A stretch of 64,000 nucleotides of DNA from a virus. Below, piece after piece: positions 12,877 to 58,122 of the stretch. The notes under the pieces were generated by a model. That model saw only the letters and a list, made by a program, of their open reading frames with translations. It searched no databases and was not told the origin of the DNA. A program made the position numbers and the translations under genes. How positions within the stretch are numbered: position 1 is the first letter of the stretch; every line of letters starts with the position of its first letter. The stretch is from the IMG/VR virus record IMGVR_UViG_3300022925_000005; one strand, 5' to 3'.

Positions 12877-12907
12877 CAAATATACGAAATATATTTGGTT
12901 AATCAAA
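12877..12907 (-). promoter_or_regulatory. Bacteroidota sigma-A type promoter
   Basis: TTTG-N19-TATATTTG upstream of PolB. Confidence 0.8.
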
Positions 12908-15543: not shown

Positions 15544-15560
15544 AATATAATAATTTAAAT

Positions 15561-15633
15561 GGTATCGTTGTTGAGGTGATACCTTACCTCATATTTAACA
15601 ATTTTGATATCGTTATAGAGTGATATCAACTCT
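15561..15633 (-). ncRNA. Two tandem H-type pseudoknots in the 5' leader (putative cis-regulatory RNA)
   Basis: mRNA sense: AGAGU-U-GAUAUC-ACUCU-AUAAC-GAUAUC and GAGGU-AA-GGUAUC-ACCUC-AACAAC-GAUACC; both stems differ between copies yet remain fully paired. Confidence 0.55.
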
Positions 15634-15642
15634 TTTACTTTG

Positions 15643-15674
15643 TAAATATAAGAAAAAGATTTGAATATACCAAA
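15643..15674 (-). promoter_or_regulatory. Bacteroidota sigma-A type promoter (variant)
   Basis: TTTG-N20-TATATTTA, overlapping a 13-14 bp inverted repeat; upstream of the pseudoknot leader and DGQHR-HNH gene. Confidence 0.65.
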
Positions 15675-15690
15675 TCTTTTCTTAATTATT

Positions 15691-16494
15691 TTACCAAAAA
15701 TTTATTTCGTTTGATTCTTCTGGTGCGTATGTTGTGTGATGAACAATATCAGTATTATAATCGTTCAAATCTTTTGGATAAGGTCTGATTTCATGCTTTA
15801 ATCTACTCATCAAATCCTTTTTCTCTTTTTTGTTAGTAGCAAGTATCTGAATGTATCGATGTTTAGGTGGTTCTTCTCTTCTCCAAAATTCTTTGTAACC
15901 ATCTTTACCTATTTCCTTTCTAAGGTGTTCCAAATTACCACTTCCCCAATTATTATAAACTGTCCTACTATGAATCCAATCATATGGGTCATTTGATAGT
16001 GAGATACCCCAATTTGGCATCAACGCGATGTCCGTGTTCAAACCTTGATAAATCCAATTGGTAGCTTTGTAAATACCACCAACATGCCCTTGCCCATTAT
16101 TAGCGTAAGATAGAAGTACTTTGATGTTTTTATCGTTATCCTTTAACCATTGGAATGTTTTACCTAAAGCACAACTTTCAATGTTCGAACCATAACCATC
16201 ATCTACATATAAACGAGTAAGTTCTAAGATATTATCCTTAGTTAATCCTTCACAAACTGAAGTAGATGCCTTAGCACCAACTGGGAATCCATATACAGCT
16301 ACACCTACTAATTCTTGGTCATTTCCAAATACATCCTTTTCATCCATCGTATGATATATACCCAAAGCGTACCTACATGCTGTCCAAGCATGAGTGTAGT
16401 GCTTTTTGATAATCATATCCTTAGCGATAGATTTAGCTATTGGTGCTACACTAATTTTAGTGGCATCACAATAATGTTTTCCTTCTTCCTTCAT
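15691..16494 (-). CDS. Mom-like (GNAT-fold) DNA adenine modification protein, paralogue 1
   Basis: HY motif, GVAVYG, LELTRL, SYANN.QGH.G.IYKATNW.YQG, C-terminal KHRY. Confidence 0.8.
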   Translation of the reverse strand: MKEEGKHYCDATKISVAPIAKSIAKDMIIKKHYTHAWTACRYALGIYHTMDEKDVFGNDQELVGVAVYGFPVGAKASTSVCEGLTKDNILELTRLYVDDGYGSNIESCALGKTFQWLKDNDKNIKVLLSYANNGQGHVGGIYKATNWIYQGLNTDIALMPNWGISLSNDPYDWIHSRTVYNNWGSGNLEHLRKEIGKDGYKEFWRREEPPKHRYIQILATNKKEKKDLMSRLKHEIRPYPKDLNDYNTDIVHHTTYAPEESNEINFW

Positions 16495-16499
16495 TTATA

Positions 16500-16658
16500 T
16501 TACTTACACCATTCTTTGAATGCGATTTCATATGCATCCACTTTACTAAGTTTTGGGTTTTCTTTCATTTCTTTGTTAGCCCAATTGATTACTTCATCTC
16601 TCATATTGTGAGCAAATGCCTCCATTAGTATTTCTTCGATGTGGTCCGAGTCAGTCAT
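16500..16658 (-). CDS. Small hypothetical protein (52 aa)
   Basis: Manual translation MTDSDHIEEILMEAFAHNMRDEVINWANKEMKENPKLSKVDAYEIAFKEWCK; directly downstream of a host-type promoter and abuts Mom-like 1. Confidence 0.65.
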   Translation of the reverse strand: MTDSDHIEEILMEAFAHNMRDEVINWANKEMKENPKLSKVDAYEIAFKEWCK

Positions 16659-16680
16659 AATTCAGTTTTTATTTAATATA

Positions 16681-16712
16681 CAAATATACGAAATTAATTT
16701 GAAACCTCCAAA
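16681..16712 (-). promoter_or_regulatory. Bacteroidota sigma-A type promoter
   Basis: TTTG-N20-TATATTTG upstream of the 52-aa ORF and Mom-like 1. Confidence 0.8.
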
Positions 16713-17461
16713 TTTATTGGCTCCATTTTTATAATTTCTTCTACAAATTCTTCGTTTTCTTTTGGGTATGGAAATATTGGATGTTTTATGGTTTTCATCA
16801 ACTTCCTTCTTATACCACCTTTTGCCAATATGTACACATATCTATGTTTTCTTGGATTCTTGCGTATCCAAAATGTGGATGAACTCATCTTTTGAATTTC
16901 ATTTGGATTGTTTGTTCCGAATTTGACATAAGAAGTTCTTTGATGATGCCAATCACCATCTTCTTCCCAACGGAAATCCCAACTATCGTTAAATCTGAGT
17001 TTGTTACCTTGATACAACCAATTCGTTGCTTGGTAAATTGTTCCACAATGTCCCTCTTTAGGGTCTGAGTAAGATATTAATCCCTTTATCTTAGGAGCGT
17101 TTTCTCTTAACCAATCAAAAGTTTGAGATAGGAACCAACTTTCAATATTTGAACCATATCCATCGAATACAAATAATCGAGTAAGTTCTAATACCTCATC
17201 TCTTTCTAATAATGGTGTGATTGATTGTCCAGCACTTCTACCAATTGGGTCTCCATAACAAGCTACACCAATTAGTTTATCTTCAACACCACTAAAGAAT
17301 GGATGCTCTTCTACTTCGGAGGTAAATAAACCAATAGCGTAGGATACCTTTGTCCACAATCCACTATAATGGTTGTTTACAATGATATCCTTCGCTACCG
17401 ATTTCGTTATGAGTCTTATCGATAGTTTTGAAGTATCGCAATATGTTTTGTTTTCTTTCAT
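16694..17461 (-). CDS. Mom-like (GNAT-fold) DNA adenine modification protein, paralogue 2
   Basis: NHYSG, GVACYG, LELTRL, SYSDP.EGH.G.IYQATNW.YQG, KHRY. Confidence 0.82.
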   Translation of the reverse strand: MKENKTYCDTSKLSIRLITKSVAKDIIVNNHYSGLWTKVSYAIGLFTSEVEEHPFFSGVEDKLIGVACYGDPIGRSAGQSITPLLERDEVLELTRLFVFDGYGSNIESWFLSQTFDWLRENAPKIKGLISYSDPKEGHCGTIYQATNWLYQGNKLRFNDSWDFRWEEDGDWHHQRTSYVKFGTNNPNEIQKMSSSTFWIRKNPRKHRYVYILAKGGIRRKLMKTIKHPIFPYPKENEEFVEEIIKMEPINLEVSN

Positions 17462-17661
17462 AAACTACCAGACCAAAATTCGTTCAAATGTGTCCAAGTT
17501 TCATTTCGAACAATTCTTAGAATATTGGCTGAAGAACACTTATTGTTTCGAGCCATAACTCTCACATTTCGGTGTCCCATTTTCCATAACTTTCTTATTT
17601 GTATAACCTGCTCATCTGTCAACTTTGAAGATGGATGAGACTGACCTCTTAGTATTGGCAT
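17458..17661 (-). CDS. Stand-alone HTH protein (resembles the DNA-binding tail of HNH homing endonucleases)
   Basis: G.SHP.SKLT.EQV..IR...., MAR...CS...I.RI.R..TW.H pattern; no nuclease domain. Confidence 0.65.
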   Translation of the reverse strand: MPILRGQSHPSSKLTDEQVIQIRKLWKMGHRNVRVMARNNKCSSANILRIVRNETWTHLNEFWSGSL

Positions 17662-17931
17662 TTAACTTGCTTTTTTTAACTCATTGATTACATTATTATA
17701 TGCCAACTCTGATTGTAACCCTGATAATCGTTGGATTTCTTTACCATTTTGTTCTATAACAACTAATGGAATACTACGAACTCCATACTTTGCAGCTTCT
17801 TCAAAATCTTTATCTACATCAAAGTCAGAAAAGGTAACATCAGTATGTTCGTTTTTTAACTTATTGATTGTTGGTGTCAATGCTTTACAAGGTCCACACC
17901 AAGTTCCATAAAATTTCTTTACTTCTATCAT
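17662..17931 (-). CDS. Thioredoxin
   Basis: WCGPC active site; immediately downstream of nrdA. Confidence 0.92.
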   Translation of the reverse strand: MIEVKKFYGTWCGPCKALTPTINKLKNEHTDVTFSDFDVDKDFEEAAKYGVRSIPLVVIEQNGKEIQRLSGLQSELAYNNVINELKKAS

Positions 17932-25729: not shown

Positions 25730-26545
25730 TTATGAGTTAAATAAATCGTCAAATGCGTTTGCTACATCATCCAACTTCTTTCTATCTTCTACCGCTGGTG
25801 CTGCTTGTGGAGCAGGTGCCGCCGGAGTTGATTGTGGAGTTGATGGAGCTGAAAGTGATTGTTGTGATACACTTTCTTGTGCACCTTCTGCTGTTGGGTT
25901 TAACCAACCTTCCAACACACCTTTCAATTCATCGTAAGATAACTCTGAATAGATATCGGTAATGTTTGTCTGTCCATCCAACAATTGTTTAACCTGCGCC
26001 TCATCATTTGTGATAGGAGTTTGTGATGGTTTAACACGAATGGTAGTTACAGGATAAGATGTTCCTGCATCTTCAGCTGATGTGTACTCAATAGTAATAT
26101 CTCTACCAGTTGTTGGGTCAGTAATATCACCATAATCCGGGTCAGCGATGTAACCTAAGATTTCTTGGTAAACAGTTTTACCGAATCCCCAAAATTTGAT
26201 TCCTTCACCTTCTTCACCACGAACAAGAACAGGTACAAATGTACGGAGTTTTGGTTCCATTTTCTTTGCGGCTTTCCAATCTTCTTTATCACCCATACGC
26301 TTCAATTTATCAGCGAATTCTACGATAGGGTCAGGACGCCCGAACGATGATGGAGATAAGTAAGTTTTGTTGTTGATGTTGTAGTGAAAATACAATTCAA
26401 TGAATGGATTCTCTTTGTTGAATAGGTAAGGTACGATTCGTACTTGATGTTTACCAGGAGTTGGTTTCCAAAGGTTACTTTTTGAGTTTCCAGTGTTTTG
26501 TAGTTTGTTCAGTCTACCTCTGATTGCGCTCAAATCTAGTGCCAT
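25730..26545 (-). CDS. Single-stranded DNA-binding protein (T4 gp32-like)
   Basis: WKP..G...RI+P, WGFGK..Y, D...G.D, acidic/aromatic C-terminus FDDLFNS; adjacent to the recombinase. Confidence 0.85.
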   Translation of the reverse strand: MALDLSAIRGRLNKLQNTGNSKSNLWKPTPGKHQVRIVPYLFNKENPFIELYFHYNINNKTYLSPSSFGRPDPIVEFADKLKRMGDKEDWKAAKKMEPKLRTFVPVLVRGEEGEGIKFWGFGKTVYQEILGYIADPDYGDITDPTTGRDITIEYTSAEDAGTSYPVTTIRVKPSQTPITNDEAQVKQLLDGQTNITDIYSELSYDELKGVLEGWLNPTAEGAQESVSQQSLSAPSTPQSTPAAPAPQAAPAVEDRKKLDDVANAFDDLFNS

Positions 26546-26662
26546 AATTTTTAAAATTTTAAGTGTTTAAATTATTTAATGGTTTTATTTTGGTGTCTTT
26601 CCTACACCTTATATAAATATCAAGAAACCTAATTTTAAGAGGGTCTCTCTCCATTTGTTATA

Positions 26663-26694
26663 CAAATATACGAAATAAAATTGATACTACCAAA
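26663..26694 (-). promoter_or_regulatory. Bacteroidota sigma-A type promoter
   Basis: TTTG-N20-TATATTTG upstream of the gp32-like SSB. Confidence 0.8.
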
Positions 26695-44532: not shown

Positions 44533-47500
44533 TTACTTATTTAATAAAAGTTTTACCATTTCCTTCAATTCATCAATCTCTTTTTGTTGAGCTTTAACAA
44601 TTTCGGATTGTTCTTTAATACCTTCTACTAATAATGGTACTAATCTATCGTATTTAAGAGTTAAGTAATCTTCACCAGATGTAGAGAACATATTACCATC
44701 CTCATCGAAATCAGTATCAAATGGTGCTGAATGAACAACCTCAGGTAATACTTCTTTCACTTGCTGAGCTGATAAACCTATTTGTTGTTTATCATCTTCA
44801 TATCCAACCGATTTTGCTAACTCATTATTCACATAATAGAAAGCATCTAATTTAGAAATCTTATCTAATGCGTTTTCAATTACACCAGTCTTTTTCTTCA
44901 ACCTTTCATCGGAGTAGAATGCGATAATATCCTGCGTTACTCTCAATTCCCGAGTCATATAGATTTGAGAATTGTTAACTTCTAATCTTTCAGTACCACC
45001 AGTTACAACTCTCCATTGGTCAGCCGCATGGAACTGCATATAGGTATTAGTATCGCCTCTATGGTAGATATAATCATTAATTTGCATATTTGCCAATAAT
45101 GATGTACTATCTGGCCGTAGATAATAACCGGTGTTATTGTAATCATAGAATCTATCAGCGTACACACTTCCTTTAGATGATACATTACCATTTGAACCAT
45201 CTAACCAAACTCTAGCATCACCATCAGCTGCTACATAGAATCCCCATCCACTTTCACCAGTAAATCCGATAAAACTAGCACCAGCTCCAGCATAACCAAC
45301 ACCATACATATTTGATAATGTTGTTTCGGCTGGGTTATATGATGAACCGATAGTATAAATTGGATTAGAACGAGTATAGTTATCACCAACTGAGTTGTAT
45401 GAACCAACTAAGTGTCCAACGTTGTGCCCACTTCTCGTATAATAATTAGAGTTTATAGTAGCAGTTCTAATTGTGTTAAAATTAGATGTACTAGCTGCAT
45501 CCACATAATATCCAGTATTATCTCTATCGTAGATAAAGTTAACCTGAAGTGTACCATTGATGTAAGTTGTTCCACCCACATACCAGTTTATGTATGTTCC
45601 GCTTCCACTCCTAGCATCTAAGTGTAGGTTACCATTTGTTGTAGCAACTGATGCTTCATTACTATATCTACCATTTGTACCAACAGCAAGATATCTTCCC
45701 CATGAAGTATTTGGTCCGAATAATATTCCTTGTCTTACACGTCCTGAATAAGTACCTGTACTATTAGGGTCTAAGTAGTATCCCGTATCATTACTATCGT
45801 AATAAATACCAGCATACATTGCTCCACCATTACCATCGTTGATATCAAGAATAGGAATAGTTCTCCAAGCGTTTGGTGAACCACCCCACTGCTGTCTAAA
45901 TCGTAGGTTTCCAATTGGACCACCAACCATTTGCCATCCGTAACGAGTTGAACCATTAGTATAGTGTAGTGCTTGAGTACCAACCCAGTGAGATGTACCC
46001 GATGGTTGGTTACCTGGATTTGACCAAGAATCAATGAAACCAGAACCCCAATTGAATACAGTGTTCATATCTAAGGTACCCCATCCCATTGAACCTACCC
46101 AATAGTTAGTATCACTCGTAAAGTTTGGCCTTCTCATATAAGTACTCGCACTACTATGAGGTGAACCTGCGTTTCCTAATTGTGCCCTAGTCCTATCGTT
46201 AACACCTTCAAACCTAGTAGAGTTAACACTAGCTCCATTAAAGTAATAACCAGTGTTATTTCTATCATAGAAGATATCTGAGCGAGTATCGTTTAAATCT
46301 GCTCTATTGAATCGAGATGTAGATGCAAAATCACCATAATAACCAGTATTATTCCGGTCATAGTAAATGTTTGCTCTCATATCGTTAAAGTACGATGTGG
46401 AAGCAGGATTTGCGTAATATCCAGTATTATCCCGGTCGTAGAATAACCCTGCTCTAATATCAGATGGTGTTTCAATACGATTATAGAAGTACCAAGAACT
46501 TCTATCGGTTTGCATATGGAAATGGGATGTATTTCTAGAACCCATTTTACCCCAACCAGTTGATGATTGGAATTTTACATCAGTATTAGCTTCACCCTCA
46601 ATATATGGATATCTTTGGTCAGTTTCTTGATGTACATACCGAGTACCACTATGGAAATGTAATCTACCTAAAGTTTGTTCTGCTTTATATAGTTTTAACC
46701 CACAATATCTAGTTACAGCCGTACTATTACCAGCATAGTTAAATAAGAATAAAGGTCTGATATATTCAGTTCCAGAGGTAAATCCGTTTCCACCATTTCC
46801 ACCAATTCTACCACTTACTTTATACCAGCCACTATTTCTAGTGTTAGAATCAAATTCTACATAAGATGCTCCCCAATATCTATTGGTATTACCAAAGTAG
46901 GATTTGGAAGCGTTATATGCAGAACCTCCCATATATAATGCACAACTACTATCATTACCAGCAACATATCTTACCCATACCTCAAATATGTATTGAGAAT
47001 TAGCGTCAATTTTAATGTAATCTGGGTGAGTTGGATAATGCTGTCCATTTACTTCGAAACAACCTGCCGCAGGTGCAGTTGGGTCATCAACTTTAGTAAT
47101 TCTTGAACTTGCACTTCCACCAACCGCAACTCCAACTTCAGCAGAAGTCATATCATCGGTAATGTTGAAGAATGAACCATTATCTACATTACGAGTGTAG
47201 TTTTGAATAGAATTACCAGTCAATACAGGTGAACCACCAACGTTTAATGCGTTAAAGTTCGATGTACCATTAGGGTCAGCATAATATCCAGTATTATTTG
47301 TATCATAGAATATTGGTGCTCTATGTGAACCAGCAGCATAAGTGTTACCACTCATATCCAACTGCCATCTATTTGCAGATGCACTCCAACCACCAATACG
47401 AAGAACGTTATCGGAATCAAGACCCATATTCACAGCATAGTATCCACCTCTATGGAACGACATAAATGCCGAGTTACCACCAGTTGAATACGCCTGAAGT

Positions 47501-50500
47501 GGAGGTGAACTTAATCCACCAGATGTTGCACCTTTATTACTTCTAAAGTAAAATTCGTTATAGGATTCACCACCATTTACGTTAATTCTATCTAATCTAG
47601 AAGTAGAGTTAGGATTTAAATAATATGCGGTATTATTTGTATCATAAAATAGTTGTGCTCTGAATGAATTTTCAGTATATACGTTTCTATCGTTGGAAAT
47701 CCACATAATAGATACGTTGTTACCACTACTCCAACCTCTACCAATACCATAGTGAGGATTGGTGTTGTTTGCAGAATATCCAAAGTATAATCCAGTTGCG
47801 TTTGTAGCAGCCGTACCAATTACCCAATGTTTAAAGTTACCCGAAGATGCATTTGCACCATCGTAACCAACAAATCTAAGGGTTGGTCCATGATTACTAT
47901 TACTAATCTCAGAGGACATTAAGTTTAACTGAGGATATTGTCCTTTAATAGTTAAATCAGGTCTACGAGTCTCTTGAACTACACCATTATATAAGTTACT
48001 TTCATCACCAATGTGTAATCTATACGTTGCACGCATCTCATTGAAACGAGATGTACTCCGTGGGTCAGTATAGTAATTGGTATCATTGTTATCATATACA
48101 ATCGGTGTACGGAGTTGAGAGAATGCGTAAACAATACCATTAGTATCTACTCTAAATCTTTCAGAAGATGAACCATTCCATACTCTGAATCTCCGATTTG
48201 AGTAATAGTTTACATAAATATCATTTCCATTATATGCATCGATATGGAAGTTTCCACCCATACGGATGTACCCATTACCATTTTGAGAACGTAAATCACC
48301 ATCAATAGCCAATGAATTCACTCTACCATTTCTGAATCTGAAATCACCTTGTGAACTACCAAAGTAGTATGCGGTGTTTTCTCTTTCGTAATAGATGTTA
48401 GAACGAATATCATTTGTGTATGATGTAGATGCAGGGTCTAAGTAATAGCCCGTATTGTTTGCATCATAGAATCTATCAGCGGCAATTGATACTTCATTTT
48501 TGTAAATGATGCTATCACCACTAAAATCTGAAATATTACTTGCTCCAGGTGTTTTATTAATGTATGCCCAAGACCGACTTGGTGTATTATCAGTATAAGT
48601 TACACTTCGAGTTGTTCTAACTCTAGCTTTTACTTGAGTGTAGTATCTTACATCAACATAAACCGGTACATATCTAATATCACCACTAATTGTTACAGGT
48701 GAACCAATTTCAACTCTAAAATGATTATTAGCTGAAATATTCGCATCAACTAATCGTACTGAATAGGAGTTGTTGTATCCCCAAAATACTTGATATTTTT
48801 TGAAAGAACCTCTACCAAAATATTGTTCATGTAATTCTACTTCAAATGTACCACCTGAATTCCAATCATTGTAATCCATTGAAATTCTAGCAATCTCAAA
48901 TCTACGAGCCTGCGTTCCACTTGCCGATAGTGTATTTGTGATAGCAATTGTTTTATGAACATCAATTTCATAATCATCACCTAAATCAACAGTACCATTT
49001 AATTGTAAGGTACCTTGAACAGTTAAGTTATTTAAGTTTGATAAAGATTCAGGGTCAGTATAGTATCCAGTATTACTACGAGAATAGAATACATTAGCTC
49101 TTAAATCATTTAATAATGATGTTGAACCTGGTCTAACGTAATAAGATGTGTTATCCTTATCATAGAATATATCAGCTCTTAAATCATTAAAGATAGATGT
49201 TGATGCTGGGTCTGAGTAATACCCCGTATTATTGTAATCATATACAATTGGAGTTCTTATTTGCCCAAATGCGTAAAGAATACCATTAGTTTCAAATCTT
49301 ACTTTCTCACTATTGTTAAATGCGAATCTTAAATGGTCGGATGCACCATTATCAACCAATAAGTTCCATTCATTTGAACCATCGGATGAGTATAAGTTTA
49401 ATCCATCATTCCAACCCGCACCACTAGCGATAATATCCAATTTTCTAATTCGAGAAGTTGAATTTGGGTTTACATAGTATCCCGTATCATTACTATCATA
49501 GAAAATAGGTGCTCTGAAATCATTTCTTGCTTGAGCAGTTGCATTAAAGTAGATGTTTGAATTTTGGTAATACATCTCCATTGCCCAATATTGAGGTACT
49601 CTTTCGTTACCCTCACCCATACCAATCCAAGAATAACCATCACCTCTATATGTTAAGTGAAGTGCGGCTGCGCCTTTACCAGATTCACCAATGTGAACCG
49701 ATTGATATCCACCACCACTACCATCAACTACAATATGAGAATTACCACCATTATTAACTAAAAGCTCGTTCATATGAACATAATTCATACGAGAAGTACT
49801 ATTAGGATTTACATAATATGCAGTATCATTGTAATCGTAGATTATTTGAGGTCTAATACCTTGCGATGATGGTATTTGAATAACATTACTACCTTCCCCA
49901 ATATACATTGTTTGAGATGAGTAGTTACCATACCAATGTTGTGCCTCAACTACATATGCTGAGAAGTCCCAACGAGGTGTATTACTAACATTGTTAACTA
50001 ATTGTATTCTTTGTAATACCGAAGTTCCAGCACCATCTACATATCTACCAGTATTATTATAATCGTAGAAAACAGGAGCTGAAATATCATAATTAGATAC
50101 AATTGTTCTTTCACTTGTCCAGAATTCGTAAGGTCCTCTATAAGTGTTACCTTCTCTTCTTGAATATCTTGGAGGGCCCCAGAATGGCATTGCAATCATT
50201 GTGTTGTAATAGTTTGAACCATTACCATGATTACTAATCAAATAGTTGTGCCATCCACTAAATCCTTCAAATGTACCAGAGCTTTGGTTGAATGTAAATT
50301 CACTATTACCAAATCCGGTTATTGCGAGAGCTCTAGCTCTTGCATTTATTGTACCATTAACAGTTAAGTTGTTTAGATTAGAAGTTCCAGCTGGGTCTAC
50401 ATAATATCCACTATCATTATAATCTCTGAATAATGTACCTCTTACTTCTTCCGTAAATACTGCTCTACTTGATAATGCTGCTCTAAACTGTCCGTTATTG

Positions 50501-53500
50501 ATAATTAATATACCATGGTCATTCAAATTATTAGCTCCACCAAGTCCACCTGCATTTGGATGAGACCAACCAATACCATACATATTAGCGGTTGATGTAC
50601 CAGCTGAATTCGGTTTGTACGAATCACCCATTGCGAATACTAATTGTAAACGAGTTGAAGTGTAATTACCTACAATACCAATACCATAGTTATTGAATAC
50701 GATGTTTCTACCATAAGTGATTCTACTGGTATCTCTCGTATCATGGTATGAAATAAGTGAATCGGAACCAGCATATCTACTATAATGATATGAATTATAT
50801 CCACTATCCCAATAATAGTGGTCACCATAACCATTTGATGAACTTTCACCAAAGTAGAAGTGTGAATCACCACTATCAGTTGCCCATAATCTAAGAGTAT
50901 CGTTGATATTGGTTGTATCATTGTTACCATTACCCAACGTTGTTGTACCCCGAGTCTCAAGACTATTTAATCGAGTTGTTGAAGCTGGATTTACATAATA
51001 TGTTGTATTATCCCTATCATACATTATGCTAGGTCTAATATCATTTAGATATGATGTAGATGCAGGGTCTAAATAATAACCCGTATTATTTGAATCATAA
51101 TATCTCGTTGCGTATAAATCACCAGTGTTACTATTCTGATTATATAACGCAGATACTTTCATAGTAATCGTTACCTTCTTAGTACCAGTTGGTTCAGTTG
51201 AGTTAGTAATAGATGTTACTCTATTTCTATCATCACCACCAGCATCTCTAACGTGTACTGAGAATGAGTTCCAATAAGATACTCTTGGCCACCAGAATGC
51301 TAAGTTACCATTATTGTTGAATACCTTCATTTGAGAGAACCCAGCATATCCAGTATGAACACCACTATAATTTATTATGGTGTTACTATATAGATAACCC
51401 TGTGCCGTAAATCCAAATGGTGGGTTTCCTGAATAACTCTTACCAGTTGCCTCTAATACAAACGATGCTCCGTTGGTTGCTGATGATGGTATATCAGTTT
51501 GTACTAATGTACCATTTACGAAATCAGAACCAGAATGTGCGTATGTTCTTACATAATGTCCTCTTAGTTGTAAGTCATACAATCTAGAGTTTGAATTCGG
51601 GTCTAAGTAATATCCAGTATTGTTCGAATCATAGAATATTGGAGTTCTGATATCAGAATAGTGGTAGAAGTAATCAGAATTTAATCTTGCTTGCTCCGAA
51701 CCATTACCCAATACTCTAAATGCATATGAGTTATTACTAGCCATACGAAGGTCTAACCCATAATCATCATCACCAGTTACAATAATACCCCAATCGTTAT
51801 TGTTTGGTTTATTAATCCATAAGATTGCATCATCACCAGAAGCGTTATTATCAACACCATCTAATCTTAAACCACTTAAACGAGATTGAGACCGAGGATT
51901 TACATAATATCCAGTATTATTCGTATCGTAGAAAATTGGTGCTCTATATGAACCATTAGCTTCAGCATATCCATTACGAACTCTCGTTTGCCAAGTACTT
52001 CCAAATCTCGTTTCAAATCTATCAGAATATCCTAATATAGATGTTGTTGGTTGTCCACCAGTTCCACTTGCGGAGAATGCGATTACCGAAACACCATTTG
52101 GTGCGTTGAATAATCTAATGTTCTCATTATAGTTGTTATAATTATCACCATCATTAATCCAAACAGATGGGTTCCGAATTTCACCTCTTACATTTATAGA
52201 AGTTCCAGTTGTATTTGGGTCTATGTAGTATGCAGTATTGTTGGAATCATAGAAAACTGGTGCTCTTGATGAACCAGCTGCCTCTACATTACCACTTGAA
52301 TCTACAAGCATTCTCCAAACACCCCAATCTTGATTTCTATATCCTCTATTGGATGTGATACCGAAACTATCGGAAGTTTGATAATAACCAGTTGTCCAAG
52401 TTTGTGAAGTTAATGGTGATGAGAATAATAAACCAGGTCTATCACTTCCACTAATACCACCACCTCTTATTTCTTGAACAATACCCCAAGAATGATTAGC
52501 GTAAGTATTCTCTACTATTAATGCCGTATTATTTCCAGCAGTACCACCAGAACCCGTTTTAGTAATTTGCATTACAGGTCCGGATGCTCTACCAAATGTT
52601 GAATAATCCGCTGGGTTTACATAGTATGCTGTATTATTTCTATCATAGAAGATATCCGAACGAGTATCATTTACATCAATTCTATTAAATCTAGAAGTAG
52701 ATGCGAAGTTACCATAATAACCAGTGTTATTCAAATCGTAGAATATCGGTGCTCTAAAATCAGCAGTTGATGTGGCAGTTCCATCAGTCCACATACCACT
52801 ACCAGCAGCGAACCTTGTCGTACCATTCATCATTAATAGAAGTTGGTGACCTAATCCAGACTTAGCTTGTGGGTTAGAACCAGCATAACTATAATCTGGA
52901 TTATAAGACCAAGCTAAACCATATAGGTTACCAGCTGCACCACTTTCATCTAATCCATTATCAGGTAAGTTGTATGAGGTACCCATACTCCAAACATGCT
53001 GATATCTTGTTGGTGAATATACACCATACACACCCCGTCCATAGTTATTAGCAACCAATGCTTTCTGAGTACCCATTGTTAGAGTACCCGTAAATGTATC
53101 AGCCGTATCACTTCTCAAGAATTGAGTAGAATCTAAACCATCTATTGTATTAGCATCACCAGTAATGTTTGCCGAAAGAGTTCCAACTACTGTTAAGTTA
53201 TTTAATCGAGTTGTTCCATTCGGATTAACATACCAATTAGTATCATCACTATCATAGAAAATTGGTGTTCTTATATCTGATGTATGATAGAAATAATCAC
53301 TATTCATACTAGCTATCACATTTCTACCATAGTTATGGAAATCTAATTGACCTCCACTAGCACCACCTGTTGTTTTTCTACCAGTGATACCAGCATATTC
53401 TCTTAACGTACCGCCACTATCCTTTAATTCAAAGAATAGAGATGCACCAGCAGATGATGCACTATTATTATGATTTGTTCTTTGTAAATTTAATACACCA

Positions 53501-56500
53501 AAATTAGTACCATCTGCGAATGAATTACCACCCTTTCTCATTGCAAATGCAACAGGAGTGGAATCACTATAATGATGGAATAATGCCGTTGATGTTGTTC
53601 CGAATCTTAATGGTTCAGAATTTTGTAATTGTAATTGGTTAAAGTTTGAAGTAGATGCCTGATTAGTGTAGTAACCAGTGTTATTCGAATCATAGAATAT
53701 TGGTGCTCTAAAATCACTACCAGCGGTTACAGTTCCAGTGAAATATGCTCCACCGGCAAATCCGATACGAGAATATGTAGAACCATTGTTTCTTAAAGCA
53801 AGGTGGTGGTCGTATCCACTACCATACTCATAACCAATTCCATACATATTAGCTAATGGCCAGCTTTCACCTATTGTCCAAATTACTTTTGATGCGGTGC
53901 TATTAACATTGTAATCACCCATCATACCACCAGCATTATTACTAACAATATAATTCGAATACTTTAATCTACCATTAAATGTACCTGTGTTAAGATTTGA
54001 ATTTGATGCAGGGTCTAAATAGTATCCCGTATCATTACGGTCATATAATGAATCTGCGTTTAATCTACCTAATGTAAATTGTGAAAATGATGATGATGAA
54101 CCAGCATTCCAAATCCAATGAGTTGGAGTTCCACCTAACGCTGCACGATAGTTAATATACATCGAAGTTGAACCACCAAATGTCATTTCATTACCACCAG
54201 ATTTGAACGATAGGTAATTTGAAATGGTATCCATATAGTTGTTACCATTATCAACATAAACCCGTGCAAATGTTGGAGAATCCGTTGTACGAACATACTG
54301 GTTCATATTCGCAGCGTATGGATTATTTACAGAATCCAATACATTAGCGTATGATGAATATGCGGTTGAAGAACCATAGGTTTGTTGCCAAATTCTCATT
54401 CCAATACCACTCTTCTTAAACATCACTAAGTTATCCGAACCACCAGATGAATCGGTGTAAGAACGAAGATGTAAGAAATCAGCGTATGGTGATGAGTTAT
54501 TGTTTGCCCAAGAAGTAAAACCGAATTTCAATCTACCTGCAGCTAATTCTGATGGAGAAATAGTTCTATTATCTTCTCTAACTAATCTATTTGCATCATC
54601 AATAGCACCATTAATAGTACCATTAACAGTCAATCCGGCGAATGTTGGTGAATCACTTGTACGAAGGTTTTGGTTCATCAAATAAACCTCAGTTGCACCT
54701 TGTCCAGTATCAATAGTACCTCCAATTTTCAAATTACCAGTATTACTACCAACTGCAGAAAGATGTTCACCAGGGTAACAAGCATGCGTATGAATTGTAC
54801 CGCTACTAAAAGCTCCTGAAAAACTAACGAATTCATTACTAAGTGGGAATACATCAACTGATAAAATTATAGCAGTTCCCGAATTGGTAGTAGCTTGAAT
54901 TGTAAACTGTTCGTTATTATTACTAATAACTCTAAGTGTAAGTAGATTTGAAGTTCCCGAATGAGATTTTATAGAAATACCACCAGTACGATTTACCAAT
55001 ATATCTGCAACTACATTTATAGGTACAGAAATGGTCTGACTAACCAATGATATTCTAACTCCAGTACCTTCATCATTAGATTGGAAATTTGATACAAGAC
55101 AAATATTAGTGTATCCAGCGTTACTTACTCCACTAAATGATGACCTCGATACTTTAGCTGCATATTCGTCCGTAAAAAATGAAAGTTCTCCATCTGGCAT
55201 CTGAACACCATTGGTGGTCATTATGAGTTTCGTACGTCCTCCTGCGGTGAACCTAATTTTGTCTGGGTCAAATTCTAAGTATGTATTGGTATCACCATCA
55301 TGAACTAACCTATCTCTTAAATAGATATCTTCAACATCATTGATTACATTAGAACCAAGTGTAAGAGTACCATTCATAATAGTAGTACCATTTACTGTCA
55401 ATCCAGAAAATGAAGGTGAATCGGATGTTCTAACATTTTGGTTCATTAAGTGAACCTCAGTAGTACCCTGACCAGTATTAATGTTACTTGCGTAAACAGT
55501 ACCATTTGCTTCAAAGTTCCAATCGGCATACCATCTATCACTTCCCTCATTCCAATAGAATTGTCGAGTTGCAGAATCACCTCTTTTAACTTCAATACCA
55601 GCATTTTCAGTTGGTGAAGTTCCGGCTCCAATATCAGCATTTAATGTGATAATATTATCACCAATATTAAGAGTTGTGGTATTGATATATGTTGTTGTAC
55701 CACTTACAGTTAAATCACCAGTAATTGTTGCGTTACCAGTTACTGCAAATATAGAACCATCAAAGGTAAGATTACTTTCAACATTTGCGGCTCCTCCACC
55801 AGCATATGTTAGTAAACCATTGTTAGTTGTACCAGTCAATGCTAATGCACCAGATGTACCACCAGAACCGGATGTTCCACCACTTCCACTTGTACCACTA
55901 CTTCCTCCACTACCTGAAGTTCCACCAGAACCAGATGTTCCAGAAGAACCTGAAGTTCCTGATGTACCACCGCTACCAGATGTTCCAGATGAACCACCGC
56001 TACCTGATGTACCAGCCGTACCACCACTACCAGCGGATGCTGATGTACCACTACTTCCAGAAGAACCAGATGTTCCTCCACTTCCAGAAGTTCCTCCACT
56101 ACCAGAAGTTCCTCCACTACCAGATGTACCACGTGAACCAGTTGTTCCAGACGAACCCGAAGAGCCAGATGTACCAGCCGTACCACCGCTACCAGCGGAT
56201 GCTGATGTACCACCAGAACCTGAAGTACCTGATGAACCACCAGAGCCCGAAGTACCTGATGAACCAGATGTACCCGATGAGCCTGAAGAACCCGATGAAC
56301 CAGAAGAACCAGCTGCACCACCTTCACCACTCACACCATCTCTACCAGACGAACCCGAAGAACCTGAAGAACCTCCACTTCCAGAAGTTCCAGATGAACC
56401 ACCGCTACCGCTTGTTCCTCCACTTCCAGAAGTTCCTCCACTACCAGATGTTCCAGACGAACCAGATGAACCTGAAGTACCACCAGTACCAGCTGATGAA

Positions 56501-58122
56501 GATGTACCACCACTACCAGAAGTACCACTACTTCCAGAAGAACCAGAGGTTCCACCACTACCAGATGAACCAGATGTTCCTCCACTTCCAGAAGTTCCAG
56601 AAGTACCACCACTACCAGATGAACCTGATGAACCAAATCCAGAAGAACCTGAACTACCACCAGAACCAGAAGTTCCAGATGAGCCAGATGAACCACCAGA
56701 CCCAGAAGTTCCAGAAGAGCCGGAAGTACCACCAGAACCAGAAGTTCCTGATGTTCCCCCACTACCAGATGTACCAGATGAACCATCTACACCAGATGTT
56801 CCCCCACTACCAGATGTACCGCTTGAACCAGAAGAGCCACCACTACCAGATGTACCTGATGAACCAGAAGTTCCACTTGTCCCAGATGAACCACTAACAC
56901 CACTACTACCCGATGAACCAGATGTACCACCGCTACCGCTTGTTCCTCCACTACCAGATGAACCAGATGAACCAGATGAACCAGATGTACCATCTATTCC
57001 ACTTGTCCCAGATGAACCTCCACTTCCAGAAGTTCCAGAAGAACCACCAGTACCTGATGAACCACCAGTACCAGAAGTACCCGATGTTCCAGATGTACCA
57101 GACGTACCAGCCGTACCGGCTGCTTGTTCCCATTCAGTACCAGTATAACGATATATGTTAGTATCTGAAGTGTTGTAATATATTTCACCAACTTCACCAG
57201 ACGCAGGGTCTGAAGAATATGATGGTATTTGTATTGAATCTTTTATAGATACGGAACCAGTAAATTCTTGCTTGTCCGATATCGAATCTCCGAATTTATT
57301 TGAACCAGTTGCATAAATTATTGATGATGAGATGTAAGTTGCCTTTAACTCAGTTGTTGTGATTGTACCCTCAACATTTAAGTTTTGAATTGTAGCAGTT
57401 CCCTCTACATCTAATGTACTTATTGTGGCTGTACCATCTACATCTAATGTTTGTGTGGTTGTAGTACCATCTACATCTAAGTTTTCACCGATTTTAGCCG
57501 AACCAGTTACGCCTAAATACTTTTCAGTTACAATTCCCACGTTCGTAACTAAACCTTCGTTAGGAGAGATTCTAGCTATTGCTGAACCCGATTGTAATCT
57601 ATTGATATCACCAACTGAATCAGCTGATATGTTTGTTAAACCACTACCATCACCCTTTATGAATGATGCCGATACTGTATTTGTTACTAATAGTGAACCT
57701 GTTATATCAGCATCAACATTTACCGAAAATTTATCTTCGGTTATAGTTGCATTTGCATCACCTTCGGCAATTCTATTGATATCACCAACTAATGCTGATG
57801 TAGGTATATTGGTTATAGCGTTTCCATCACCTTGAAATGAACCACTAAAAGAACCACTAAATTCAGTACTCGTAATAGTTGTACCATCGATGGTATCAAC
57901 AACTATACTATCAGCAGTAATTGTGGATGTAACCACTTCACTACCACTAAATACAGAACCAGTATATGAGATAGCTGAAATACCATTCTCAACCGATAAT
58001 TCGGTATTAATACTTACCGAATCAGTAGATATATTTACCTGCGATTCTCCGTTTACATCTAATGATAATAAACTTTGACTGATTTGATTTAAACCATTAG
58101 GGTCTTTACCTGTGTATTTCAT
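44533..58122 (-). CDS. Giant modular tail fibre (4529 aa) with Gly-Ser-Thr repeat, 28 YD-x-N-x-T-x-YY repeats and C-terminal peptidase S74 chaperone
   Basis: Single ORF; C-terminal SDERLK...G+.AQ.V..V.PE.V...Y.R+VP+L+E.IKE plus coiled coil (intramolecular chaperone); located in the tail module. Confidence 0.85.
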   Translation of the reverse strand: MKYTGKDPNGLNQISQSLLSLDVNGESQVNISTDSVSINTELSVENGISAISYTGSVFSGSEVVTSTITADSIVVDTIDGTTITSTEFSGSFSGSFQGDGNAITNIPTSALVGDINRIAEGDANATITEDKFSVNVDADITGSLLVTNTVSASFIKGDGSGLTNISADSVGDINRLQSGSAIARISPNEGLVTNVGIVTEKYLGVTGSAKIGENLDVDGTTTTQTLDVDGTATISTLDVEGTATIQNLNVEGTITTTELKATYISSSIIYATGSNKFGDSISDKQEFTGSVSIKDSIQIPSYSSDPASGEVGEIYYNTSDTNIYRYTGTEWEQAAGTAGTSGTSGTSGTSGTGGSSGTGGSSGTSGSGGSSGTSGIDGTSGSSGSSGSSGSGGTSGSGGTSGSSGSSGVSGSSGTSGTSGSSGTSGSGGSSGSSGTSGSGGTSGVDGSSGTSGSGGTSGTSGSGGTSGSSGTSGSGGSSGSSGTSGSGGSSGSSGFGSSGSSGSGGTSGTSGSGGTSGSSGSGGTSGSSGSSGTSGSGGTSSSAGTGGTSGSSGSSGTSGSGGTSGSGGTSGSGGSSGTSGSGGSSGSSGSSGRDGVSGEGGAAGSSGSSGSSGSSGTSGSSGTSGSGGSSGTSGSGGTSASAGSGGTAGTSGSSGSSGTTGSRGTSGSGGTSGSGGTSGSGGTSGSSGSSGTSASAGSGGTAGTSGSGGSSGTSGSGGTSGTSGSSGTSGSGGTSGSGGSSGTSGSGGTSGSGGTSGALALTGTTNNGLLTYAGGGAANVESNLTFDGSIFAVTGNATITGDLTVSGTTTYINTTTLNIGDNIITLNADIGAGTSPTENAGIEVKRGDSATRQFYWNEGSDRWYADWNFEANGTVYASNINTGQGTTEVHLMNQNVRTSDSPSFSGLTVNGTTIMNGTLTLGSNVINDVEDIYLRDRLVHDGDTNTYLEFDPDKIRFTAGGRTKLIMTTNGVQMPDGELSFFTDEYAAKVSRSSFSGVSNAGYTNICLVSNFQSNDEGTGVRISLVSQTISVPINVVADILVNRTGGISIKSHSGTSNLLTLRVISNNNEQFTIQATTNSGTAIILSVDVFPLSNEFVSFSGAFSSGTIHTHACYPGEHLSAVGSNTGNLKIGGTIDTGQGATEVYLMNQNLRTSDSPTFAGLTVNGTINGAIDDANRLVREDNRTISPSELAAGRLKFGFTSWANNNSSPYADFLHLRSYTDSSGGSDNLVMFKKSGIGMRIWQQTYGSSTAYSSYANVLDSVNNPYAANMNQYVRTTDSPTFARVYVDNGNNYMDTISNYLSFKSGGNEMTFGGSTSMYINYRAALGGTPTHWIWNAGSSSSFSQFTLGRLNADSLYDRNDTGYYLDPASNSNLNTGTFNGRLKYSNYIVSNNAGGMMGDYNVNSTASKVIWTIGESWPLANMYGIGYEYGSGYDHHLALRNNGSTYSRIGFAGGAYFTGTVTAGSDFRAPIFYDSNNTGYYTNQASTSNFNQLQLQNSEPLRFGTTSTALFHHYSDSTPVAFAMRKGGNSFADGTNFGVLNLQRTNHNNSASSAGASLFFELKDSGGTLREYAGITGRKTTGGASGGQLDFHNYGRNVIASMNSDYFYHTSDIRTPIFYDSDDTNWYVNPNGTTRLNNLTVVGTLSANITGDANTIDGLDSTQFLRSDTADTFTGTLTMGTQKALVANNYGRGVYGVYSPTRYQHVWSMGTSYNLPDNGLDESGAAGNLYGLAWSYNPDYSYAGSNPQAKSGLGHQLLLMMNGTTRFAAGSGMWTDGTATSTADFRAPIFYDLNNTGYYGNFASTSRFNRIDVNDTRSDIFYDRNNTAYYVNPADYSTFGRASGPVMQITKTGSGGTAGNNTALIVENTYANHSWGIVQEIRGGGISGSDRPGLLFSSPLTSQTWTTGYYQTSDSFGITSNRGYRNQDWGVWRMLVDSSGNVEAAGSSRAPVFYDSNNTAYYIDPNTTGTSINVRGEIRNPSVWINDGDNYNNYNENIRLFNAPNGVSVIAFSASGTGGQPTTSILGYSDRFETRFGSTWQTRVRNGYAEANGSYRAPIFYDTNNTGYYVNPRSQSRLSGLRLDGVDNNASGDDAILWINKPNNNDWGIIVTGDDDYGLDLRMASNNSYAFRVLGNGSEQARLNSDYFYHYSDIRTPIFYDSNNTGYYLDPNSNSRLYDLQLRGHYVRTYAHSGSDFVNGTLVQTDIPSSATNGASFVLEATGKSYSGNPPFGFTAQGYLYSNTIINYSGVHTGYAGFSQMKVFNNNGNLAFWWPRVSYWNSFSVHVRDAGGDDRNRVTSITNSTEPTGTKKVTITMKVSALYNQNSNTGDLYATRYYDSNNTGYYLDPASTSYLNDIRPSIMYDRDNTTYYVNPASTTRLNSLETRGTTTLGNGNNDTTNINDTLRLWATDSGDSHFYFGESSSNGYGDHYYWDSGYNSYHYSRYAGSDSLISYHDTRDTSRITYGRNIVFNNYGIGIVGNYTSTRLQLVFAMGDSYKPNSAGTSTANMYGIGWSHPNAGGLGGANNLNDHGILIINNGQFRAALSSRAVFTEEVRGTLFRDYNDSGYYVDPAGTSNLNNLTVNGTINARARALAITGFGNSEFTFNQSSGTFEGFSGWHNYLISNHGNGSNYYNTMIAMPFWGPPRYSRREGNTYRGPYEFWTSERTIVSNYDISAPVFYDYNNTGRYVDGAGTSVLQRIQLVNNVSNTPRWDFSAYVVEAQHWYGNYSSQTMYIGEGSNVIQIPSSQGIRPQIIYDYNDTAYYVNPNSTSRMNYVHMNELLVNNGGNSHIVVDGSGGGYQSVHIGESGKGAAALHLTYRGDGYSWIGMGEGNERVPQYWAMEMYYQNSNIYFNATAQARNDFRAPIFYDSNDTGYYVNPNSTSRIRKLDIIASGAGWNDGLNLYSSDGSNEWNLLVDNGASDHLRFAFNNSEKVRFETNGILYAFGQIRTPIVYDYNNTGYYSDPASTSIFNDLRADIFYDKDNTSYYVRPGSTSLLNDLRANVFYSRSNTGYYTDPESLSNLNNLTVQGTLQLNGTVDLGDDYEIDVHKTIAITNTLSASGTQARRFEIARISMDYNDWNSGGTFEVELHEQYFGRGSFKKYQVFWGYNNSYSVRLVDANISANNHFRVEIGSPVTISGDIRYVPVYVDVRYYTQVKARVRTTRSVTYTDNTPSRSWAYINKTPGASNISDFSGDSIIYKNEVSIAADRFYDANNTGYYLDPASTSYTNDIRSNIYYERENTAYYFGSSQGDFRFRNGRVNSLAIDGDLRSQNGNGYIRMGGNFHIDAYNGNDIYVNYYSNRRFRVWNGSSSERFRVDTNGIVYAFSQLRTPIVYDNNDTNYYTDPRSTSRFNEMRATYRLHIGDESNLYNGVVQETRRPDLTIKGQYPQLNLMSSEISNSNHGPTLRFVGYDGANASSGNFKHWVIGTAATNATGLYFGYSANNTNPHYGIGRGWSSGNNVSIMWISNDRNVYTENSFRAQLFYDTNNTAYYLNPNSTSRLDRINVNGGESYNEFYFRSNKGATSGGLSSPPLQAYSTGGNSAFMSFHRGGYYAVNMGLDSDNVLRIGGWSASANRWQLDMSGNTYAAGSHRAPIFYDTNNTGYYADPNGTSNFNALNVGGSPVLTGNSIQNYTRNVDNGSFFNITDDMTSAEVGVAVGGSASSRITKVDDPTAPAAGCFEVNGQHYPTHPDYIKIDANSQYIFEVWVRYVAGNDSSCALYMGGSAYNASKSYFGNTNRYWGASYVEFDSNTRNSGWYKVSGRIGGNGGNGFTSGTEYIRPLFLFNYAGNSTAVTRYCGLKLYKAEQTLGRLHFHSGTRYVHQETDQRYPYIEGEANTDVKFQSSTGWGKMGSRNTSHFHMQTDRSSWYFYNRIETPSDIRAGLFYDRDNTGYYANPASTSYFNDMRANIYYDRNNTGYYGDFASTSRFNRADLNDTRSDIFYDRNNTGYYFNGASVNSTRFEGVNDRTRAQLGNAGSPHSSASTYMRRPNFTSDTNYWVGSMGWGTLDMNTVFNWGSGFIDSWSNPGNQPSGTSHWVGTQALHYTNGSTRYGWQMVGGPIGNLRFRQQWGGSPNAWRTIPILDINDGNGGAMYAGIYYDSNDTGYYLDPNSTGTYSGRVRQGILFGPNTSWGRYLAVGTNGRYSNEASVATTNGNLHLDARSGSGTYINWYVGGTTYINGTLQVNFIYDRDNTGYYVDAASTSNFNTIRTATINSNYYTRSGHNVGHLVGSYNSVGDNYTRSNPIYTIGSSYNPAETTLSNMYGVGYAGAGASFIGFTGESGWGFYVAADGDARVWLDGSNGNVSSKGSVYADRFYDYNNTGYYLRPDSTSLLANMQINDYIYHRGDTNTYMQFHAADQWRVVTGGTERLEVNNSQIYMTRELRVTQDIIAFYSDERLKKKTGVIENALDKISKLDAFYYVNNELAKSVGYEDDKQQIGLSAQQVKEVLPEVVHSAPFDTDFDEDGNMFSTSGEDYLTLKYDRLVPLLVEGIKEQSEIVKAQQKEIDELKEMVKLLLNK
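55850..57125 (-). repeat. Gly-X-Y (GTS/GSS/GSG) low-complexity coding repeat
   Basis: About 420 aa of G-x-x triplets with 9-nt DNA periodicity and varied synonymous codons. Confidence 0.9.

What the first reader, a model, noticed from the sequence alone, without database searches (positions are those of the whole stretch)
15561..15633. Two tandem, covarying H-type pseudoknots in the leader of the DGQHR-HNH/GT operon
Seen (mRNA sense): copy 1 is AGAGU U GAUAUC ACUCU AUAAC GAUAUC and copy 2 is GAGGU AA GGUAUC ACCUC AACAAC GAUACC, about 45 nt apart. Each has a 5-bp S1, 1-2-nt L1, 6-bp S2 and an A-rich L3 ending in AAC. Both stems differ between copies but stay fully paired (compensatory changes). 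Copy 1 begins about 10 nt after the promoter's -7 element and copy 2 ends 17 nt before the ATG. Inference: a structured RNA. It could be a translational operator, a ligand sensor, or a type III antitoxin-like (ToxI-style tandem pseudoknot) RNA restraining the downstream nuclease. I know of no such arrangement described with a DUF262-HNH protein.
Basis: partly seen in the sequence, partly recalled or inferred. Interest (0 to 1): 0.8.

Follow-up and report, generated by a model that had tools for sequence, protein, structure and literature searches.

The report
Pseudoknot leader of a phage nuclease
A large aquatic phage carries a real, previously uncatalogued pair of small RNA knots at the front of the message for a restriction-type DNA-cutting protein; the knots appear only when that gene is present, so they probably let the protein switch off its own production.

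Summary
Observation confirmed. The two H-type pseudoknots (15606-15633 and 15561-15591, minus strand) fill a ~100-nt 5' leader between a Bacteroidota-type promoter and a 506-aa DUF262/GmrSD-like HNH gene of a large phage. In 23 homologous leaders (proteins 54-96% identical) 98.8% of cells pair and 11 of 22 pairs covary. There is no Rfam match and only one tandem per genome. The gene sits in a hypervariable slot before the glycosyltransferase: 9/9 distinct leaders of this gene carry a pseudoknot, 0/23 leaders of other ~600-aa occupants behind the same promoter do, and leader plus nuclease swap together between phages with 93-98% identical flanks. So the RNA belongs to the nuclease, not to the GT or promoter. 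It fails type III antitoxin membership (no terminator, DNase-type rather than ToxN-type protein, leader lost in some operon-internal copies), and shows no riboswitch expression platform. Best reading (about 50%): an autogenous translational operator, like T4 gene 32. An AbiF/ToxI-like inhibitor of the nuclease is not excluded (about 20%). Binding and expression are untested. Earlier scan notes mention this leader only in this genome.

The parts
15643..15674 (-). Bacteroidota-type promoter: -33 TTTG at 15671-15674 and -7-like box at 15643-15650; a variant of a promoter repeated about 9 times in the window
   Evidence: consensus from PMC6847099; conserved position in homologs. Inferred, start site not mapped
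15606..15633 (-). Pseudoknot 1 (S1 5 bp, L1 1 nt, S2 6 bp, L3 5 nt)
15592..15605 (-). A/U-rich linker, 11-15 nt in homologs
15561..15591 (-). Pseudoknot 2 (S1 5-6 bp, L1 2 nt, S2 6 bp, L3 ending in AAC)
15544..15560 (-). Unstructured A/U-rich translation initiation region without SD; A at -3, -12, -13; 16-20 nt in all two-knot homologs; no terminator
   Evidence: PMC6847099
14023..15543 (-). 506-aa DUF262 (ParB/Srx-like; QR, DGQHR) plus C-terminal HNH (D472-H473-N487-N496) protein, a distant GmrSD/BrxU/SspE relative
   Evidence: motifs per PMC4619093
12899..14023 (-). 374-aa GT-B glycosyltransferase, stop/start overlap with the nuclease gene; co-transcribed by inference, but not the partner of the leader
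15691..16494 (-). Upstream Mom-family gene; variable among homologous loci, not part of the element

Best explanation
The two pseudoknots are a cis-acting, gene-specific 5'-leader element, most likely an autogenous translational operator. Shown: the structure is under selection; it fills the stretch from the promoter to 16-20 nt before the start codon; it occurs only in front of the DUF262-HNH gene and moves with it. Inferred: the leader is transcribed from the host-type promoter and folds into two coaxial knots that leave the A-rich initiation region just free. Inferred, untested: surplus nuclease (GmrSD-family proteins are oligomeric nucleotide-gated DNases, from my knowledge of BrxU/SspE) binds the two similar knots, one per subunit or cooperatively. 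The complex on PK2 then blocks the 30S at the edge of its footprint and caps the level of a potentially self-damaging nuclease, and of the coupled GT.
For: Covariation: 98.8% paired, 11/22 pairs with double-sided changes, slid controls 26-51%; unit alignment 99.4%, 8/11 pairs. Gene specificity: every true motif hit in IMG/VR scans lies before this gene; models find only these two units per genome, including a 271-kb complete one. Slot test: 9/9 distinct nuclease leaders have a knot (99-124 nt) against 0/23 for other ~600-aa occupants (median 25 nt) behind the same promoter type and before the same GT. Cassette swap: L055/L063/L088 share the upstream gene (93-98%) and GT (96-97%) but the nuclease is 52-61% identical, and L063 has a different leader starting right after the promoter. 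The hairpin-plus-one-knot leader maps to one side of a 100/98 branch of the protein tree. In subclade L078/L141 both knots carry the same changed S2 pair. Spacing to the ATG is fixed. Precedent: T4 gene 32 pseudoknot and RNA control of phage homing-endonuclease genes (PMC3014915); these phages' own ssb genes have gene-32-like leaders.
Against: I know of no DUF262 protein shown to bind RNA. Leader and ORF are adjacent, so co-transfer is partly expected from linkage alone. Two protein clades only 53-56% identical share nearly the same leader, so there is no strict one-to-one co-evolution. The concerted change in L078/L141 could be gene conversion. The knots do not overlap the initiation region. 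L083 and several ~40% relatives are operon-internal and have no leader.
Confidence: 0.5

Rival explanations
1. Antitoxin-like RNA: the leader, intact or released by processing, binds the nuclease and inhibits its activity, working like ToxI/TenpI or the two-motif abiF RNA RCd22 but against a DNase. It is not exclusive of the operator model.
For: Promoter, two non-identical H-type knots with A-rich flanks, then a nuclease gene: the layout of tenpIN loci with two non-identical repeats (PMC12283969) and of phage AbiF/RCd22 (PMC12373285). Strict linkage to the nuclease. HNH and DGQHR residues are conserved, so the enzyme looks active.
Against: No Rho-independent terminator between RNA and gene, whereas ToxIN/CptIN/TenpIN and AbiF all have one; nothing therefore produces excess RNA. 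The protein is not an endoribonuclease that could process repeats. L083 (63% identical) and ~40% relatives lack the leader. One clade replaces PK1 by hairpins.
Confidence: 0.2
2. Protein-independent cis element: the knots stabilise the 5' end of the mRNA or set a fixed translation rate, for example through ribosomal protein bS1, which binds pseudoknots (own knowledge).
For: PK1 starts a few nt after the predicted start site; the initiation region stays open; structure is conserved more than sequence; hairpins can substitute for PK1.
Against: Other genes behind the same promoter, including 23 other slot occupants, manage with short unstructured leaders. Four junction pairs are near-invariant in both knots, more than a generic roadblock needs.
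Confidence: 0.15
3. Operator for another phage protein: the gp32-like SSB or PolB (gp43-like), tying nuclease synthesis to the state of replication.
For: T4 gp32 binds a pseudoknot; T4 gp43 operators have UAAC/CAAC loops like L3 here (PMC3014915). PolB lies two genes downstream.
Against: PolB has its own promoter at 12877-12907. The leader changes with the nuclease allele while flanking DNA stays about 90% identical. The ssb leader has a different knot and a long unstructured tract that is absent here. PK1 L3 loses AAC in several clades.
Confidence: 0.08
4. Tandem mini-riboswitch sensing a nucleotide-like ligand (NTP for the DUF262 domain or nucleotide-sugar for the GT).
For: Size and H-type fold resemble preQ1-I-like aptamers (own knowledge); the junction pairs are near-invariant.
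Against: No Rfam hit even at E<=10. L1 is 1-5 nt and L3 varies, down to 2-3 nt in one clade. No terminator or conserved alternative helix to the initiation region. Found before one gene family only, and absent when the GT is kept but the nuclease is replaced.
Confidence: 0.07

Closest known systems
T4/T2/RB69 gene 32 leader pseudoknot (autogenous translational operator; PMC3014915)
   Same: Compact coaxial H-type pseudoknot in a phage 5' leader upstream of an A/U-rich initiation region; gene-specific.
   Different: Two knots in tandem; only 16-20 nt to the start codon instead of a long tract with UUAA(A) repeats; the gene is a DUF262-HNH nuclease, not an SSB; binding not shown.
Type III toxin-antitoxin RNAs ToxI, CptI, TenpI (PMC5086642, PMC12283969)
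   Same: Promoter, repeated H-type pseudoknots with A-rich flanks, then a nuclease gene; TenpI also has two non-identical repeats.
   Different: No intervening terminator; the protein is a 506-aa GmrSD-like DNase, not a ToxN-fold RNase; no Rfam match; leader dispensable in some copies.
AbiF / RCd22 (Rfam RF03085; PMC12373285)
   Same: Phage-borne, about 100-nt RNA with two motifs directly upstream of a nuclease gene.
   Different: abiF motifs are hairpins followed by a terminator and AbiF is a Cas13-related protein; here pseudoknots, no terminator, DUF262-HNH.
GmrSD-family type IV restriction enzymes BrxU (7P9K) and SspE (6JIV); Menshen NsnA DUF262
   Same: QR and DGQHR motifs, ParB/Srx-like N-terminus, helical middle, C-terminal D-H-N-N HNH; top fold matches; NsnA profile E 1.4e-8 over residues 107-233.
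   Different: Very distant (about 10% identity, Foldseek E 0.035, Z 7.1); phage-encoded, in a swappable slot; no RNA leader described for the family in the papers searched.

Membership tests
Type III toxin-antitoxin (ToxIN/CptIN/TenpIN) | Repeated pseudoknot-forming RNA units between promoter and toxin gene | tested here: met
   Two non-identical covarying H-type units
Type III toxin-antitoxin (ToxIN/CptIN/TenpIN) | Rho-independent terminator between repeats and toxin gene | tested here: not met
   None in the window; only a 16-20-nt A-rich tail without hairpin in homologs; criterion from PMC5086642
Type III toxin-antitoxin (ToxIN/CptIN/TenpIN) | Toxin is a ToxN-fold endoribonuclease | tested here: not met
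   Protein is positively assigned to DUF262 + HNH by motifs, profiles and fold
Type III toxin-antitoxin (ToxIN/CptIN/TenpIN) | RNA binds and neutralises the toxin in trans | not testable with these tools
   Needs an experiment
Gene 32-type autogenous translational operator | H-type pseudoknot in the 5' leader upstream of an unstructured A/U-rich initiation region | tested here: met
Gene 32-type autogenous translational operator | Specific to one gene family | tested here: met
Gene 32-type autogenous translational operator | Downstream gene is an ssDNA-binding protein with a long UUAA(A) tract | tested here: not met
   Gene is DUF262-HNH; the phage's gp32-like gene is at 25730-26545 with its own leader
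Gene 32-type autogenous translational operator | Gene product binds the RNA and represses translation | not testable with these tools
   Needs EMSA and reporter
Known riboswitch or Rfam family | Match to a curated covariance model | tested here: not met
   No hit at gathering score; best E 1.7 and unrelated at E<=10
Known riboswitch or Rfam family | Expression platform (terminator or alternative helix over the initiation region) | tested here: not met
   No conserved alternative helix or U-tract in 28 leaders
GmrSD/DUF262 type IV restriction enzymes (downstream protein) | QR and DGQ(Q/H)R motifs and E/D-H-N-N HNH motif | tested here: met
   Q35 R36, D113-R117, D472 H473 N487 N496 invariant or nearly so in 31 sequences; motifs per PMC4619093
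GmrSD/DUF262 type IV restriction enzymes (downstream protein) | Pfam GmrSD_N at gathering score or a significant fold match | tested here: inconclusive
   Only sub-threshold Pfam hits in relatives; Foldseek E 0.035, Z 7.1
GmrSD/DUF262 type IV restriction enzymes (downstream protein) | Nucleotide-dependent cleavage of modified DNA | not testable with these tools
   Needs an assay

The most novel reading that the evidence does not exclude
The leader is a two-unit RNA ligand that both represses translation of the DUF262-HNH protein and holds the enzyme inactive: an RNA-restrained type IV restriction-like DNase carried by phages as a swappable weapon, i.e. a type III-like toxin-antitoxin logic applied to a DNase and working without a terminator.
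Probability: 0.2. Interest if true: 0.85.

Novelty: new variant of a known kind. Interest (0 to 1): 0.62.

Why it matters
It is a well-supported RNA family absent from Rfam and from the papers searched, and it is tied to one protein family by a natural control experiment (same promoter and slot, other genes, no knots). If the operator model holds, it is the first RNA-binding and RNA-level control that I know of for a DUF262/GmrSD-type nuclease, and a second kind of phage pseudoknot operator beside gene 32, which a 2010 review called possibly the only viral example (PMC3014915). The natural pairs of leader type and protein clade make specificity directly testable with 30-nt RNAs. If the RNA also inhibits the enzyme, it would extend RNA antitoxins from RNases to DNases.

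Tried and rejected
Rfam at gathering score and at E<=10: nothing relevant. RNAfold cannot model knots and gave only the S2 hairpins, z -1.66, so it is uninformative. No cultured phage encodes the nuclease or the GT; nearest PolB is Microcystis phage Mel-JY01 at 51%, too distant to give the host. Cellular genomes (GTDB): no close protein relative and only chance pattern hits. The distant alignment A4 was too divergent for a locus search. PDB sequence search found nothing for either protein. Rejected: DNA-level operator or repeat (interleaved stems covary, sequence does not stay fixed, the few G-U pairs read correctly on the mRNA strand); leader peptide (no conserved uORF); guide-like use (no match over 11 nt elsewhere in the window); regulator of the GT or promoter in general; general early-promoter RNA found before unrelated genes. 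Literature searches for this arrangement returned no papers; the library is incomplete. Complex prediction was not used: it cannot score an RNA partner.

Full report
Observation. PK1 is 15606-15633 and PK2 15561-15590/91. They lie between a promoter-like site (15643-15674) and the ATG (15543) of a 506-aa ORF. A scan of both strands of the window for compact Watson-Crick H-type pseudoknots finds few, and these two are the only adjacent pair. None of 4000 dinucleotide shuffles of the intergenic region gave two. Rfam has no match.

Context. The window is a large phage replication region: PolB, clamp, clamp loader, RNR, gp32-like SSB, UvsX, two Mom genes, DruA-like. About nine copies of a TTTG...TAnnTTTG-type promoter occur, one before the leader and a separate one before PolB. 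This, the absence of SD sequences, and adenines at -3, -12 and -13 match Bacteroidota (PMC6847099); the host is inferred, not shown. The ORF has the QR, DGQHR and D-H-N-N motifs of DUF262/GmrSD proteins (PMC4619093). Its model's best fold matches are BrxU, SspE, ParB and Cas9-HNH, all weak, and the DUF262 part hits the NsnA profile. The next ORF is a GT-B glycosyltransferase.

Conservation. Homologous loci from viral and metagenome contigs gave 23 distinct two-knot leaders for proteins 54-96% identical. Over the 22 pairs, 98.8% of cells pair, 11 pairs have double-sided changes (73 cells), and registers slid by 1-3 columns pair at only 26-51%. All four helices covary. Pooling PK1 and PK2 as one unit gives 99.4% and 8 of 11 pairs. 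These controls do not correct for relatedness, but up to four different pair types occur at single positions. Near-invariant are the four pairs at the helix junction; L1 is 1-5 nt, PK2's L3 always ends in AAC, PK1's varies; PK2 always ends 16-20 nt before the ATG. One protein clade (100/98 support) has two or three small hairpins with similar six-base loops followed by a single knot at the PK2 position.

What the RNA belongs to. Pattern scans of IMG/VR and a descriptor scan of 2.8 Mb of fetched loci found complete knots only in front of this gene; other hits were chance matches, mostly in coding DNA. Covariance models find just these two units per genome, including a complete 271-kb genome. 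Searching by the GT instead showed that the position upstream of it is a hypervariable slot: among 80 loci, 18 hold the DGQHR-HNH gene, 35 hold unrelated ~600-650-aa proteins, and others hold Mom, a PLOD-type GT or a 399-aa ParB-like protein. All 9 distinct DGQHR-HNH leaders are 99-124 nt with a knot; none of 23 distinct leaders of the ~600-aa occupants has one (median 25 nt). In L055, L063 and L088 the upstream Mom (93-98%) and GT (96-97%) are shared while the nuclease is 52-61% identical; identity drops right after the promoter, and L063 carries the hairpin-type leader. The leader is therefore a companion of the nuclease gene. Adjacency alone explains co-transfer, but not why the structure is maintained only with this gene.

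Mechanism. There is no terminator, conserved alternative helix or leader peptide, so neither attenuation nor a classical riboswitch is indicated. I favour autogenous translational repression (about 0.5): the protein binds two similar knots, and the complex at PK2, fixed at the edge of the ribosome footprint, blocks initiation. Shown are structure, position and gene specificity; transcription, binding and repression are inferred. Precedents are the T4 gene 32 pseudoknot and RNA-structure control of phage endonuclease genes (PMC3014915). The same phages' ssb genes carry a gene-32-like leader. An antitoxin-like role (0.2) has the right layout (PMC12283969, PMC12373285) but lacks the terminator that defines those systems (PMC5086642), and operon-internal copies without a leader exist (L083 and ~40% relatives). 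A protein-independent stabiliser or translation tuner (0.15), an operator for SSB or PolB (0.08) and a mini-riboswitch (0.07) remain less likely.

Comparison and novelty. It works most like a gene-32-type operator and is laid out like a type III antitoxin, but is a member of neither: the gene is not an SSB, and terminator and ToxN-type toxin are absent. No paper in the searchable library pairs DUF262/GmrSD with a pseudoknot or leader control. Earlier scan notes mention the leader only in this genome; one note on another genome, where a leader before a DUF262-HNH gene proved not to be gene-specific, prompted the specificity tests, which here came out the other way. Verdict: a real, uncatalogued, gene-specific tandem-pseudoknot RNA; new variant of a known kind; interest 0.62.

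Noticed in passing
window 26545-26663 (-), and L182-L260: The gp32-like ssb gene (25730-26545) has a conserved structured leader: a 5-7-bp stem whose loop can pair with a downstream A-rich stretch (a clear 7-bp second stem in 8 of 49 distinct leaders), followed by a long A/U tract with UUAAA-like repeats. It looks like a T4 gene 32-type operator in a distant phage group; no Rfam hit in the window.
   Followed up: partly
L274-L348, slot upstream of the GT: A family of highly divergent 584-658-aa proteins (32 of 80 loci, plus 3 of a second type) replaces the nuclease in the same slot; no Pfam or PADLOC match, Atlas only a weak DUF2828/TROVE lead.
   Followed up: partly
L336:1308-2501 and L343:1190-2386: A 399-aa protein with a weak ParB_N hit occupies the same slot and has its own 113-126-nt structured leader with what looks like a different covarying pseudoknot; only two examples.
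   Followed up: partly
L093, L094, L145 leaders: Distant DUF262-HNH relatives (29-41%) in SD-using phages also have structured leaders: two small hairpins (L093, L145, both just behind tRNA-like sequences) or a long-stem pseudoknot ending next to the SD (L094). RNA-level control may be family-wide.
   Followed up: partly
L062, L063, L084, L085, L102, L137, L142: Leader variant with two or three short hairpins with similar six-base loops plus one pseudoknot with a very short L3.
   Followed up: yes
window 6033-33091 (-): About nine near-identical Bacteroidota-type promoters; the one in front of the leader departs from the phage consensus.
   Followed up: partly
window 16494-16694 and 17461-17662 (-): Two apparent gaps each contain a small unannotated ORF of about 50-65 codons, the first behind its own promoter.
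   Followed up: no
window 44533-58122 (-): A 4529-aa ORF, probably a tail fibre or adhesin-like protein; not examined.
   Followed up: no
L182 (IMGVR_UViG_3300022928_000403): Its SSB is 100% identical to the window's, so it is probably the same or a sister phage.
   Followed up: no
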